Shown here piece by piece: positions 1,721 through 3,997 of a stretch of 64,000 nt of DNA. Under the pieces are notes generated by a model, which saw only the letters and a program-made list of their open reading frames with translations, ran no database searches and was not told where the DNA came from. Within the stretch, counting starts at the first letter, position 1. Each line of letters opens with the position of its first letter. This DNA is from Thermodesulfobium acidiphilum (GTDB lineage Bacteria > Thermodesulfobiota > Thermodesulfobiia > Thermodesulfobiales > Thermodesulfobiaceae). The translations under genes and the position numbers were made by a program. The stretch is taken from assembly GCF_003057965.1 (NCBI RefSeq), contig NZ_CP020921.1, positions 732,916 to 796,915 on the forward strand, in the 5' to 3' direction.

Positions 1721-3997
1721 ATGAAATGTCCTTATTGTGATTCGAACGATTCTAAAGTTATCGACACTCGATTTGTAGAAGAAAGTGGTGTTATAAGAAG
1801 GAAGAGAGAATGCCTTTCTTGTGGGAAGAGGTTTGTTACCCATGAAATTTACGAAGAGGGTTCGAAAAAAAATATAGATAACAATTCTGATGAAACTGTA
1901 ATACTTTCTCCTGAATATGTAAAAAAGAGAGATGGCAGGGTTGTACCATTTGATATCTTTAGAATTGAAAGGGCAATTGCAAAAGCTTTCAAAGCTGTTG
2001 GAGAACACCTTGGTGCAGAAAAGGAATTAGCAGCTAGGGTTTCTAAGAAATTATATCGTCAATATAGAGAACAAGAAGTAGTAGATATTGAAAGGATTCA
2101 AGACGTTGTAGAAGAGGTCTTGATAGAAAATGGTTTTGCAAAAGTTGCAAAGGCTTATATTCTTTATAGAAGAAAGAGACAGGAAGCTAGAGAAAATCTT
2201 TCTTGTGCTGTGGATATAGAGCACATAATTCAAGACTATCTTCATCAGGAAGATTGGAGAACAAATGAAAACTCTAATACTACATACTCTTATCCGGGTT
2301 TAGTTCTTCACGCTGCTGGATCGGTCATGGCACATTATACTTTGAATCGTATTTATCCTGATGAAGTAAAAGATGCTCACGTAAACGCAGATATGCATAT
2401 TCACGATCTGTCCTATGGTATTACAGCTTATTGTGCAGGTTGGTCTCTGGAAGATCTTCTAAGAGAAGGGTTTGGAGGTGTTCCGGGTAAAGTCGCAGCA
2501 GGTCCAGCAAAACATCTCTCTGCTCTTACCGGGCAAATGGTTAATTTTCTTGGTACAATGCAGATGGAATTTGCAGGTGCACAGGCATTTAATTCTGTAG
2601 ATACATTTCTTGCACCTTTTGTAAGGGCTGATGATCTGGATTATAAGAATGTAAAACAGATAATTCAGCAGATGGTTTTTGCAATGAATGTGCCTTCCAG
2701 ATGGGGATCTCAACCTCCTTTTATTAACTTTACTTTTGATTGGACTGTTCCAGAAGACATGATGAACAGGCCTGTTATAATAGGAGGGAAAGAGTGCCCT
2801 GAATATGGCACTTACGGCGATTATCAGAAAGAAATGGATATGATAAATAGAGCATACATAGAAGTAATGCTGGAAGGCGATTATGATGGAAGAATATTTT
2901 CATTCCCAATTCCTACATACAACATTACTAATAACTTTCCCTGGGAAAGCGAGAATACAGATCTATTATTTGATTTAACGGCAAAATATGGCGTTCCATA
3001 TTTTCAAAATTTTATAAACTCTGATCTTAAGCCTTCAGATATTAGAAGCATGTGTTGTAGACTACAGCTAGATCTAAAAGAACTCAGGAAAAGGTGTGGA
3101 GGACTTTTTGGTTCTGGAGATAAAACTGGATCAATAGGTGTAGTAACTATCAATCTGCCTAGGATTGGATATCTTTCTAAGAGCGAAAGCGAATTTTTTG
3201 CAAGACTTGATAAGGTTATGAACCTTGCAAAAACTTCTCTTGAGATAAAGAGAAAGGTAGTGGAAAGAAATCTTAAGAATGGCTTGTTGCCGTATACCAG
3301 AAGATATCTAGGCTCATTTTCTAATCACTTTTCTACAATTGGCCTTGTAGGGATGAATGAAGCTTGCTTAAATTTCTTGGGAGCATCTATTGCTACCGAG
3401 AAGGGGAAGAGTTTTGCTATCAAAGTTCTAAAACATATGAGAGAAAAATTAGCTAGCTATCAAGAAGAGACTGGTAATTTATATAATTTGGAGGCCACTC
3501 CTGCAGAAGGAACATCTTATAGACTTGCAAGGCATGACAAGAAAAAATATCCTGATATTATTACCTCAGGAGAAAGTGAACCGTATTATACGAATTCAAC
3601 TCATTTACCGGTAAATTATACAGAAGATCCGTTTGAGGTAATGGATCACCAGGAGGAATTACAAAAGCTTTATACAGGAGGCACAGTTATTCACACATTT
3701 TTGCCAGAGTCTCCTACTCCTGAAGCTGCAAAACAATTTATAAAGAAGGCATTTGAAAATTACTCTTTCCCTTATCTTACGCTTACGCCTACCTTTTCTA
3801 TATGTCCAACCCATGGATATATTGCAGGAGAACACTTTGTTTGTCCAAAGTGCAATCAAGAAACAGAGGTATATTCAAGGGTGGTAGGGTATTATAGACC
3901 TGTAAGGATGTGGAACAAGGGAAAGAAAGAAGAGTTTAGAAATAGAGTAGAGTATGATATTAACAAATATTCTATTCATAGATTGGTAGTAAGATAA
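1721..3997 (+). CDS. nrdD: Anaerobic (class III) ribonucleoside-triphosphate reductase with N-terminal NrdR-like zinc ribbon and ATP cone
   Basis: MKCPYC...[14 protein letters not shown] zinc ribbon; VKKRDG ATP cone; YCAGW, SMCCRL, ATPAEG, CPTHG/CPKC and [11 protein letters not shown] glycyl-radical loop; ATG at 1721 after a purine-rich RBS. Confidence 0.95.
   Translation: [758 protein letters not shown]

What the first reader, a model, noticed from the sequence alone, without database searches (positions are those of the whole stretch)
1721..3997. Class III ribonucleotide reductase fused to an NrdR DNA-binding zinc ribbon: a candidate self-repressing enzyme
Seen: one uninterrupted 758-aa ORF starts [42 protein letters not shown], followed by a ~19-aa linker, an ATP cone and a complete NrdD. 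Established: CPxC...D(S/T)R...IRRRRECxxCxxRF is the N-terminal zinc ribbon of NrdR, the normally stand-alone repressor of RNR genes. The cone ends VAKAYILYR (NrdD-type), not VAYVRFASVY (NrdR-type), so only the DNA-binding ribbon appears grafted onto the enzyme's own allosteric cone. Inference: NrdD may bind its own promoter, with one ATP/dATP-sensing cone controlling both catalysis and transcription. I do not know of a described NrdR-ribbon/NrdD fusion, but could not search for one.
Basis: partly seen in the sequence, partly recalled or inferred. Interest (0 to 1): 0.92.

Follow-up and report, generated by a model that had tools for sequence, protein, structure and literature searches.

The report
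Ribonucleotide reductase carrying its repressor's DNA-binding domain
The only enzyme this bacterium has for making DNA building blocks carries, at its front end, the DNA-binding zinc ribbon of the repressor that normally controls such enzymes, and that repressor's binding sites sit before its own gene, so the enzyme probably switches off its own production.

Summary
Window 1721-3997(+) is one open 758-aa frame made of an NrdR zinc ribbon (aa 1-42), a 23-aa linker, one RNR-type ATP-cone (66-155) and a complete class III reductase NrdD (183-745). nrdG and a terminator follow.

- **Only copy.** In this complete 1.77-Mb genome it is the only RNR, the only ATP-cone and the only NrdR-like ribbon.
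- **Conserved.** All 4 species genomes of its phylum carry the same fusion and no free NrdR. Ribbon dN/dS is 0.02-0.04, like the catalytic core.
- **Operator.** Two perfect NrdR-box cores lie upstream in all four. Their centres are 19 or 29 bp apart, a 10-bp step. Relatives with a free NrdR have 31-32 bp.
- **Origin.** The junction maps to NrdR residues 1-56 joined to NrdD residue 2. This fits an in-frame deletion in a tightly coupled nrdR-nrdD operon, the arrangement in Atribacterota relatives.
- **Recurrence.** Ribbon-only and full NrdR-NrdD fusions also occur in DPANN-type archaea. They arose independently (AU test p 2.5e-6).

Eight literature searches found no description of such a fusion.

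Best reading: an auto-repressing "trigger enzyme", possibly with one cone gating both catalysis and DNA binding. DNA binding itself is untested. I rate it a new variant of a known kind.

The parts
1635..1640 (+). TTGACA hexamer abutting box 1, a possible -35 element. The promoter is not resolved.
   Evidence: Read in the sequence. The same hexamer is present in G001. The consensus scan found no promoter overlapping the boxes.
1640..1655 (.). NrdR box 1 in the 16-bp frame; perfect 12-bp palindromic core at 1642-1653.
   Evidence: The core fits the published regex C.[AT].[A][AT].[AT].G. It is conserved in 4 of 4 species.
1659..1674 (.). NrdR box 2 in the 16-bp frame; the same perfect core at 1661-1672, with its centre 19 bp from box 1 and about 54 bp before the ATG.
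1707..1718 (+). G-rich ribosome-binding stretch.
   Evidence: Read in the sequence. It is conserved in the three other species.
1721..3997 (+). Fused gene of 758 aa plus stop: NrdR ribbon, linker, ATP-cone and NrdD.
1721..1846 (+). NrdR-type zinc ribbon, aa 1-42: CxxC at 3-6 and 31-34, plus K12, D15, R17, R26 R27 K28 R29 and R37.
   Evidence: Pfam PF22811. PDB NrdR chains match residues 1-55. Contact residues are taken from PMC9110341. Invariant columns are. dN/dS is 0.02-0.04.
1847..1915 (+). Linker, aa 43-65. It is made of the NrdR post-ribbon residues and the retained N-terminal tail of NrdD, and holds no in-frame start codon.
   Evidence: Junction mapping. pLDDT is below 50 at 45-58. dN/dS is 0.15-0.36. 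There is no ATG, GTG or TTG in frame before codon 134.
1916..2185 (+). ATP-cone, aa 66-155, of the RNR type.
   Evidence: Residues 56-174 are 62.5% identical to residues 2-121 of the unfused Caldatribacterium NrdD. The best PDB matches are RNR cones, not NrdR cones.
2267..3955 (+). NrdD catalytic domain, aa 183-745, with the glycyl-radical-type motif RVVGYY at aa 720-725 (nt 3878-3895) and the C-terminal Cys cluster at aa 695-711.
   Evidence: The meaning of the motifs is recalled, not tested.
4000..4689 (+). nrdG, the radical-SAM activase of the reductase.
   Evidence: TIGR02495 NrdG2 scores 162.3 bits against a cut-off of 131.15. Pfam finds Radical_SAM.
4699..4737 (+). Terminator-like hairpin with T tail that closes the nrdD-nrdG operon.

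Best explanation
The protein is a bifunctional 'trigger enzyme': an active class III ribonucleotide reductase that also represses its own operon. Pairs of N-terminal NrdR ribbons, held on flexible 23-residue linkers, bind the two palindromic NrdR boxes 47-83 bp before the start codon and block transcription of nrdD-nrdG. No NrdR cone is left. The only nucleotide sensor that could gate DNA binding is therefore the enzyme's own ATP-cone, so dATP (or the dATP/ATP ratio) would lower catalysis and transcription together. The fusion arose by an in-frame deletion inside a translationally coupled nrdR-nrdD operon. That deletion removed the NrdR cone and the nrdD start codon. Shown here: the architecture, its uniqueness in the genome, conservation of ribbon and boxes, the origin, and recurrence elsewhere. 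Inferred: DNA binding, repression, and coupling to the cone.
For: (1) It is the sole ribbon, sole ATP-cone and sole RNR in a 99.99%-complete single-contig genome. No ribbon-less enzyme can be made by internal initiation.
(2) All 4 species genomes of the phylum carry the fusion and none has a free NrdR. Of the 57 genomes from other phyla searched, 34 have a full-length NrdR.
(3) Both box cores, with two flanking A (14 nt), are identical in all four species. The flanks differ, and synonymous sites are near saturation (pS 0.63-0.79).
(4) The centre-to-centre distance is 19 bp in G000 and G001 and 29 bp in G002, G003 and L038. This is a 10-bp step, with box 2 fixed about 54 bp before the ATG, as expected if one protein assembly touches both boxes on one face of the helix.
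(5) The residues that contact DNA in the solved NrdR-DNA complex are present (D15, R17, R26, R27, R29, R37; K at 12 and 28) and are invariant or nearly so among 23 ribbon-only fusions.
(6) Ribbon dN/dS is 0.02-0.04 against 0.013-0.017 for the core and 0.15-0.36 for the linker.
(7) The exact 12-mer core occurs 3 times in the genome: twice here and once inside a PabB-like coding sequence.
(8) Independent lineages made the same kind of protein. Holding all fused NrdDs as one clade costs 291.8 lnL (p-AU 2.45e-6). Short fusions need at least 3 changes on the careful tree, and 0 of 200 bootstrap trees allow 1.
(9) In those lineages NrdR-box pairs lie within 200 nt upstream of 13 of 19 ribbon-only fusions and 4 of 9 full fusions. 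The figure for control windows is 31 of 1755.
(10) The six published archaeal genomes with a fusion each have that ribbon as their only one.
(11) The AF2 model of residues 1-175 gives a three-stranded ribbon, a disordered linker and a cone. Its best structural matches are whole NrdR chains.
(12) A model of two ribbon copies supports pairing: score 0.42, best of 3 controls 0.00. The mark was reached by 20 of 30 proteins solved as pairs and 1 of 23 solved as single chains. Runs agree in at least 96% of contacts and partner pLDDT is at least 81. My own alignment was used, and NrdR ribbon dimers are solved, so the pass may be from memory.
(13) In P. copri NrdD, dATP stiffens and pairs the cones and shifts the dimer-tetramer equilibrium (PMC11226230, passages). 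This offers a route from nucleotide state to ribbon geometry.
Against: - No binding, expression or protein data exist, and no RNA run holds the locus.
- The consensus scan found no promoter overlapping the boxes, so repression by occlusion is assumed.
- Canonical NrdR needs ATP and dATP bound together in an NrdR-specific cone class. The P. copri NrdD cone bound only dATP when both were offered, so the gating logic cannot simply be inherited.
- The unusual 19/29-bp spacing is not a general property of ribbon-only fusions. Most archaeal ones keep 31-32 bp.
- By my regex, 6 of 19 short and 5 of 9 long fusions show no box pair within 200 nt.
- An abundant enzyme acting as its own repressor risks over-repression unless binding is weak or gated.
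- The four species are close kin, so they count as roughly two independent observations of spacing.
Confidence: 0.55

Rival explanations
1. Plain negative autoregulation without nucleotide gating. The ribbons bind the boxes whenever enzyme concentration is high enough, and the ATP-cone controls catalysis only.
For: All the evidence for DNA binding above applies. The linker is disordered and evolves fast, which argues against tight mechanical coupling between cone and ribbon. RNR cones bind nucleotides differently from NrdR cones.
Against: In NrdR the ribbon dimers must be brought into a tetramer by cone contacts to bind two boxes with high affinity, and two boxes are required. The 10-bp phasing of the boxes implies a defined higher-order assembly. 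In archaeal ribbon-only fusions the enzyme's cone sits only about 8-12 residues after the ribbon, close to where the NrdR cone sits.
Confidence: 0.2
2. The ribbon no longer binds DNA. It is kept for another reason, such as zinc-dependent pairing, stability, or an effect on enzyme oligomers. The boxes are then relics or are bound by another factor.
For: No direct evidence of binding exists. The ribbon also mediates protein-protein pairing in NrdR and is predicted to pair here. The box spacing is outside the range that works for canonical NrdRs.
Against: Relic boxes would not stay identical at 14 of 14 positions, twice, across species whose synonymous sites are near saturation. The specificity residues D15 and R17 and the arginine cluster are conserved. 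No other NrdR-like protein is encoded.
Confidence: 0.12
3. The ribbon binds the boxes but the outcome is not repression, for example activation or positioning of the enzyme at its own locus.
For: The promoter is not mapped. The spacing differs from that of repressing NrdR operators.
Against: Every studied NrdR is a repressor whose boxes overlap the promoter. A TTGACA hexamer abuts box 1 in two species, which would place the boxes over the promoter core.
Confidence: 0.08
4. Artefact: a misassembly, a frameshift error or a read-through of two genes.
For: None found.
Against: The same frame is found in 4 species genomes, one of them another single-contig assembly, and in an independent metagenome contig with no indel. 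Proteins 88-91% identical over the N-terminal 170 residues come from NCBI, ENA, JGI and Logan. The junction region carries synonymous-biased change.
Confidence: 0.01

Closest known systems
NrdR, the stand-alone repressor of RNR operons (S. coelicolor, E. coli; PDB 7p37, 7p3f, 9gex, 9fvr)
   Same: It has the same zinc ribbon, with two CxxC motifs, D15, R17 and the arginine cluster. It has the same kind of palindromic box in tandem before an RNR operon. The N-terminal 175 residues have the same domain order, ribbon then cone, and match whole NrdR chains structurally.
   Different: The NrdR-type cone and C-terminus are absent (TIGR00244 matches positions 1-55 only, below cut-off). The cone is the enzyme's own. 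The linker is 23 residues, against the 4-7 reported for NrdRs. The box centres are 19 or 29 bp apart, against 31-33 or 41-43. The regulator is covalently part of its target enzyme.
Class III RNR NrdD with an N-terminal ATP-cone (P. copri 8p23/8p28; unfused Atribacterota NrdD)
   Same: It has a complete NrdD with its cone and an adjacent nrdG. It is 75-77% identical (best tblastn segment) to Caldatribacterium and other Atribacterota NrdDs and nests among them in the tree.
   Different: It carries about 56 extra N-terminal residues of NrdR origin. The relatives instead have a separate nrdR gene directly upstream, and in 5 of 8 Atribacterota loci its stop overlaps the nrdD start by 4 nt.
Full-length NrdR-NrdD fusions found here (810-885 aa, two ATP-cones), mainly in DPANN-type archaea
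   Same: Repressor and reductase are in one polypeptide, and NrdR boxes lie upstream in 4 of 9.
   Different: They keep the NrdR cone, so sensing for transcription and for catalysis can stay separate. The window protein has one cone for both. They are of independent origin.
Trigger enzymes such as PutA, BirA and NadR (recalled from general knowledge; no call)
   Same: Each is an enzyme with a DNA-binding domain that represses genes of its own pathway, with activity and repression linked to a metabolite.
   Different: They use different folds and pathways. I found no case described for ribonucleotide reduction in my searches. Here the DNA-binding module was taken from the pathway's dedicated repressor.
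ATP-cone shuffling in RNRs, for example the cone on the radical subunit NrdB of Leeuwenhoekiella (PMC5794259)
   Same: Both show that RNR regulatory modules are evolutionarily mobile.
   Different: There a cone moved between enzyme subunits. Here a DNA-binding domain moved onto the enzyme.

Membership tests
Class III ribonucleotide reductase NrdD | Full-length match to the curated equivalog and family models above their cut-offs | tested here: met
   NF006126 scores 1102 bits (cut-off 548) and TIGR02487 scores 558.8 (cut-off 326.35). Pfam NRDD covers 1-562 of 562 positions.
Class III ribonucleotide reductase NrdD | C-terminal glycyl-radical motif and Cys-rich zinc site (motif definitions recalled) | tested here: met
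   RVVGYY lies at aa 720-725, and CPTHG...CPKC at 695-711. The sequence shows them. Their role is inferred from the family.
Class III ribonucleotide reductase NrdD | Dedicated radical-SAM activase NrdG encoded alongside | tested here: met
   The ORF at 4000-4689 scores 162.3 bits against TIGR02495 NrdG2 (cut-off 131.15).
Class III ribonucleotide reductase NrdD | Ribonucleotide reduction activity | not testable with these tools
   Activity is inferred, because this is the only RNR found in a 99.99%-complete genome.
NrdR repressor family (TIGR00244) | N-terminal zinc ribbon with two CxxC motifs and the DNA-contact residues | tested here: met
   PF22811 scores 63.8 bits (cut-off 27.2). D15, R17, R26, R27, R29 and R37 are present. 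PDB NrdR chains match residues 1-55 with E about 5e-10.
NrdR repressor family (TIGR00244) | NrdR-type ATP-cone directly after the ribbon, giving a whole-protein score above the cut-off | tested here: not met
   The score is 49.2 bits against a cut-off of 124.65, and only model positions 1-55 of 147 match. The cone matches RNR cones instead.
NrdR repressor family (TIGR00244) | Stand-alone protein of 140-220 residues | tested here: not met
   The ribbon is part of a 758-aa polypeptide, and no separate nrdR exists in the genome.
NrdR repressor family (TIGR00244) | Tandem NrdR boxes before RNR genes at about 3 or 4 helical turns | tested here: inconclusive
   Two boxes with the conserved C and G are present, but their centres are 19 or 29 bp apart. 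Published optima are 31-33 and 41-43 bp.
NrdR repressor family (TIGR00244) | Nucleotide-dependent binding to the boxes and repression | not testable with these tools
   This needs EMSA or MST and a reporter assay.
Trigger enzymes (enzyme-repressors such as PutA and BirA; a concept, recalled) | Catalytic and DNA-binding domains in one polypeptide, with the operator at the enzyme's own operon | tested here: met
   This is a functional class, not a homologous family.
Trigger enzymes (enzyme-repressors such as PutA and BirA; a concept, recalled) | Demonstrated switch between enzymatic and regulatory roles | not testable with these tools
   No experimental data exist.

The most novel reading that the evidence does not exclude
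A single ATP-cone does double duty. In one polypeptide it allosterically sets reductase activity and also decides whether the attached NrdR ribbons assemble on the operator. Enzyme activity and enzyme synthesis would then be throttled by the same dATP signal, with no separate repressor. This solution evolved repeatedly from nrdR-nrdD operons, in a small bacterial phylum and in DPANN-type archaea. In the bacterial lineage the operator was re-spaced to 19 or 29 bp to fit the new, longer-linkered scaffold.
Probability: 0.35. Interest if true: 0.85.

Novelty: new variant of a known kind. Interest (0 to 1): 0.72.

Why it matters
RNR is controlled at two levels that have always been studied in separate proteins: allostery through the enzyme's ATP-cone, and transcription through NrdR's own cone.

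Here nature has removed the repressor's cone and left its DNA-binding ribbon on the enzyme. This gives a natural experiment on three questions:
- Can an RNR-type cone drive DNA binding?
- How do ribbon geometry and linker length set operator spacing?
- How does a minimal genome with one RNR keep dNTP supply in check?

The protein is directly testable with existing NrdR assays (MST or EMSA with ATP/dATP, spacer series, cryo-EM). The recurrence in DPANN-type archaea suggests a general evolutionary route: coupled operon, then full fusion, then loss of the redundant cone. It would also add ribonucleotide reduction to the short list of pathways run by trigger enzymes.

Tried and rejected
- **RNA evidence:** no RNA holder was listed for 1450-2450. 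The transcript start and expression could not be examined.
- **Promoter scan:** no sigma-70-like site overlapping the boxes at the tool's thresholds. My hand reading (TTGACA, 17 nt, then a weak extended -10) is not evidence.
- **Rfam:** no hit in 1-6000, so no known riboswitch in the leader.
- **Fusions in named relatives:** I first read the '1-745' tblastn matches in Caldatribacterium, Synergistota, Spirochaetes, Woesearchaeota and others as fusions. Translation showed a separate nrdR ORF (open frames 150-398 aa) directly upstream of nrdD in 27 of the 44 loci examined and a true fusion only in L038. The other 36 of the 80 loci were not examined; their matches began at query residue 36 or later.
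- **Spacing tied to the fusion:** I rejected the idea that non-canonical box spacing goes with ribbon-only fusions in general. Archaeal ribbon-only fusions mostly have 31-32 bp.
- **Third box core:** the third exact 12-mer (genome position 346836) is not a regulon member. It lies inside a PabB-like coding sequence at a GGGITIYSD motif.
- **Representative-library search** with residues 1-175: 7508 hits at E<=0.001. Among the best 150, stand-alone NrdRs and fragments cannot be told from fusions by this table, so it gave no usable count.
- **The listing of cluster members** gave no organism names for the distant fusions.
- **Junction script**: it stopped with an error after the first of three loci, so the junction mapping rests on L042 only.
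- **Papers:** supplementary files were not consulted. Supplementary alignments and box tables of PMC9110341 and PMC12051234 could bear on whether such fusions or short spacings were seen before.
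Full report
**1. The observation**

The frame containing the finding is open from 1679 to 3997. The ATG at 1721 sits behind a G-rich ribosome-binding stretch and begins with the M-x-C-P-x-C signature with which the NrdR sequences seen start. It gives 758 aa.

- Pfam places Zn_ribbon_NrdR at 1-42 (63.8 bits, cut-off 27.2), one ATP-cone at 66-155 and a full-length NRDD domain at 183-745.
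- NCBIfam's reductase equivalog NF006126 covers residues 66-747 with 1102 bits (cut-off 548).
- The NrdR equivalog TIGR00244 matches only its first 55 of 147 positions and stays below its cut-off.
- Against solved structures, residues 1-55 hit NrdR chains by sequence (E. coli, S. coelicolor). Residues 66-167 hit RNR cones (L. blandensis NrdB, P. aeruginosa NrdA, P. copri NrdD), not NrdR cones.

The linker is 23 rather than about 19 residues. nrdG follows at 4000-4689 (TIGR02495 above cut-off), then a terminator-like hairpin.

**2. Not an artefact**

- The same fused frame is present in three other species genomes, one of them also a single contig.
- Proteins that are 88-91% identical over the N-terminal 170 residues and carry the same three Pfam domains come from NCBI, ENA, JGI and Logan.
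- A Logan contig from a hot-spring metagenome covers 1450-2450 in one piece with four substitutions and no indel. A second run has equal depth and may be the same data.
- There is no in-frame ATG, GTG or TTG between codons 2 and 133. A ribbon-less enzyme with an intact cone cannot be made by internal initiation.

**3. Genomic setting**

The window's genome is one contig of 1,774,794 bp, 99.99% complete. It holds:
- one match to the NrdR model, which is the fusion itself;
- one ATP-cone;
- no class I or II large-subunit domain;
- one NRDD domain.

The fused protein is therefore the organism's only RNR and its only NrdR-like element.

In the genome collection its phylum consists of four species genomes of one genus. 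All four have the ribbon inside a 759-779-aa open frame, and none has a second match. Of the 57 genomes from other phyla in the same search, 34 have a full-length free NrdR above the cut-off.

**4. The operator**

Two identical 16-mers lie at 1638-1653 and 1657-1672. Each contains a perfect 12-bp palindrome whose 10-bp core fits the published NrdR-box expression.

Genome-wide, the exact 12-mer occurs three times: the two here, and one inside a PabB-like coding sequence, which I take as chance.

In the other three species and in MAG contig L038, the 14-nt stretch formed by the core plus two preceding A is unchanged in both boxes, while the flanks differ. Synonymous sites of the gene between the two species pairs are near saturation (pS 0.63-0.79), so this conservation is not due to lack of time.

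| Genomes | Centre-to-centre distance |
|---|---|
| G000, G001 | 19 bp |
| G002, G003, L038 | 29 bp |

Box 2 stays about 54 bp before the ATG, so the difference is a 10-bp step between the boxes. A 10-bp step keeps both boxes on the same helical face. This is the signature reported for NrdR operators at 3 versus 4 turns (PMC12051234, passages).

The absolute values are unusual, however. With 16-bp boxes they correspond to spacers of 3 and 13 bp. Four canonical NrdRs bind best at 15-17 bp, with a second optimum at 24-27 bp, and an E. coli reporter was derepressed at 13 bp or less.

The nearest relatives with a free NrdR have 31-32 bp in 9 of 9 loci (8 Atribacterota, 1 Synergistota).

**5. The ribbon is under selection for its NrdR function**

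In the S. coelicolor NrdR-DNA structure, R12, R26-29 and R37 hold the phosphates, and D15 and R17 read the bases (PMC9110341, passages).

The window protein has K12, D15, R17, R26, R27, K28, R29 and R37 at the same numbers. In an alignment of 23 ribbon-only fusions, C3, C6, K12, R17, R26, R27, R29, C31, C34 and R37 are invariant, and D15 is at least 90% conserved.

| Region | Nei-Gojobori dN/dS among the four species |
|---|---|
| Ribbon | 0.02-0.04 |
| Linker | 0.15-0.36 |
| Cone | 0.02-0.03 |
| Core (through codon 542, where three loci end) | 0.013-0.017 |

An AF2 model of residues 1-175 (mean pLDDT 75.5) gives a three-stranded ribbon, a linker with pLDDT below 50 at 45-58, and a helical cone.
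- Its best Foldseek matches are whole NrdR chains over 161-171 columns (E 1e-8 to 1e-11). The rmsd is high because the domain orientation differs.
- RNR cones come next, at rmsd 1.5-2.8 Å and 33-37% identity.

A model of two copies of residues 1-48 supports pairing through strand 38-45.
- The score is 0.42, and the best of 3 controls scores 0.00.
- The mark was reached by 20 of 30 proteins solved as pairs and by 1 of 23 solved as single chains.
- Runs agree in at least 96% of contacts, and partner pLDDT is at least 81.
- My own alignment was used, and NrdR ribbon dimers are solved, so the pass may only reflect likeness.

**6. Origin**

A scan of species genomes with the whole protein returned 80 loci, of which I examined 44.
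- 27 have a separate nrdR ORF directly upstream of nrdD. These include all eight Caldatribacterium and other Atribacterota loci, whose NrdD is 75-77% identical (best tblastn segment) to the window's.
- Only L038, from the window's own lineage, is fused.
- In two further Atribacterota loci (Profundicultor), the 3' end of nrdR lies right before nrdD.
- In 5 of 8 Atribacterota loci the nrdR stop overlaps the nrdD start by 4 nt.

BLASTP maps window residues 1-56 to Caldatribacterium NrdR 1-56 (50% identity) and residues 56-174 to its NrdD 2-121 (62.5%). This rests on one locus only, because the script stopped after it.

The simplest history is an in-frame deletion that removed NrdR from about residue 57, together with the nrdD start codon.

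**7. The architecture recurs**

Of the 120 best database proteins for the N-terminal 170 residues, 25 carry ribbon, cone and NRDD in one protein. They fall into two kinds.

| Kind | Length | ATP-cones |
|---|---|---|
| Long | 810-885 aa | Two; a whole NrdR followed by NrdD |
| Short | 748-762 aa | One; the same design as the window's |

Some fusions also carry inteins.

A metagenome scan gave 80 loci. For the 58 whose match starts at residue 1, I count 21 short fusions, 10 long fusions, 26 separate nrdR-nrdD pairs and 1 without a ribbon.

In a DPANN-type archaeal phylum, 317 of 401 sampled genomes have the ribbon.
- Among the 150 matches listed, 7 lie in open frames of 758 aa or more. A further 174 matches were not listed.
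- One of the 7 is in an unpublished genome and is left out of all claims.
- I fetched the six published ones. Two are short and four are long fusions, three of the long ones to a divergent NrdD.
- Each of the six genomes has that ribbon as its only one.

A careful ML tree of the NrdD core (55 rows, 579 columns) needs at least three changes for the short-fusion label.
- The window clade nests among unfused Atribacterota and Synergistota enzymes.
- One short group sits beside an archaeal unfused enzyme.
- Another sits inside a clade of long fusions.
- Holding all 20 fused rows together is rejected (ΔlnL 291.8, p-AU 2.45e-6).

Box pairs at 29-33 or 39-43 bp lie within 200 nt upstream as follows.

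| Class | With a box pair |
|---|---|
| Short fusions | 13 of 19 |
| Long fusions | 4 of 9 |
| Separate nrdR genes | 15 of 24 |
| Control windows of the same loci | 31 of 1755 |

Loci with under 150 nt of upstream sequence were dropped, and several loci are near-duplicates.

Two facts run against a tidy story. The archaeal short fusions mostly keep the canonical 31-32 bp. Their ribbon-to-cone linker is only about 8-12 residues, against about 24 in the window clade. The odd spacing therefore goes with the long linker of this lineage, not with the fusion as such. That rests on two lineages and is a lead only.

**8. Mechanism**

- **Shown:** one polypeptide; the sole ribbon, cone and RNR; a conserved operator; a conserved ribbon.
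- **Inferred from the NrdR structures:** each palindromic box takes a pair of ribbons, and two boxes take four subunits. NrdD is a dimer whose cones pair and stiffen with dATP, and the dimer-tetramer equilibrium shifts towards tetramers (PMC11226230, passages).
- **Proposed:** the dATP-loaded state brings four ribbons into a geometry that fits the two boxes and shuts off nrdD-nrdG. The ATP-loaded state leaves the cones, and hence the ribbons, mobile.
- **Open:** NrdR needs ATP and dATP bound together, whereas the P. copri cone bound only dATP when both were offered. The logic may therefore differ, or binding may not be gated at all (rival 1).

**9. Known or new**

Eight full-text searches found no description of an NrdR-NrdD or ribbon-NrdD fusion.

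I read passages of the main NrdR and NrdD papers (PMC9110341, PMC12051234, PMC11226230, PMC5794259, PMC3019208). [quoted passage not shown]

Subscription papers and supplements were not searched. The Pfam domain model exists, so database curators may have seen the architecture.

I class it as a new variant of a known kind: NrdR-type control recast as a trigger enzyme.

**10. Verdict**

The finding is real, conserved and recurrent. It is probably functional as an auto-repressing reductase (confidence about 0.75 for DNA binding at its own operator, about 0.55 for the full model with cone gating). It remains a strong candidate for experiment.

Noticed in passing
Genomes G061-G464: The NrdR zinc ribbon is found in 317 of 401 sampled genomes of a DPANN-type archaeal phylum. 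The 2022 NrdR paper (passage) calls NrdR rare in archaea, on the basis of an older genome set.
   Followed up: partly
L236:430-2754(+), L237:303-2798(-), L238:291-2786(-): Full NrdR (ribbon plus cone) is fused to a divergent NrdD type that Pfam NRDD covers only in part (194-366 bits). This is a further independent fusion partner. Box centres are 41 bp apart in L237, and none was detected in L236.
   Followed up: partly
P0035, P0041, P0049: Some fused NrdR-NrdD proteins of 1104-1309 aa also carry intein and homing-endonuclease domains (PF14528, PF14890) inside the reductase.
   Followed up: no
G038:C13:88970-89413 and G059:C25:22805-23245: Full-length NrdR matches lie in open frames of 397 and 583 aa. 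These may be fusions of NrdR to something other than NrdD, or simply long upstream open frames.
   Followed up: no
L122 and L161; L235: Some archaeal ribbon-only fusions have two box pairs upstream: a distal pair at 31-32 bp and a proximal pair at 29 bp (L122, L161) or 31 bp (L235). This recalls the double operators described for L. monocytogenes nrdAB.
   Followed up: no
Own genome position 346836 = L118:2037-2048: The third exact copy of the 12-bp box core lies inside a PabB-like (aminodeoxychorismate/anthranilate synthase-like) coding sequence at a GGGITIYSD motif. I take it as chance.
   Followed up: yes
Window 268-1437(-): The divergently transcribed neighbour is a PLP-dependent aminotransferase. 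Its best NCBIfam matches are the aminotransferase halves of MocR/PdxR-type regulators, all below cut-off, and the matches begin at profile positions 88-140, past the N-terminal part of those regulator models.
   Followed up: no
PDB 9a6n: The best structural match of the N-terminal module is an integrative model of NrdR bound to the ParA-like protein Soj. This hints that NrdR ribbon-cone modules have protein partners beyond DNA.
   Followed up: no
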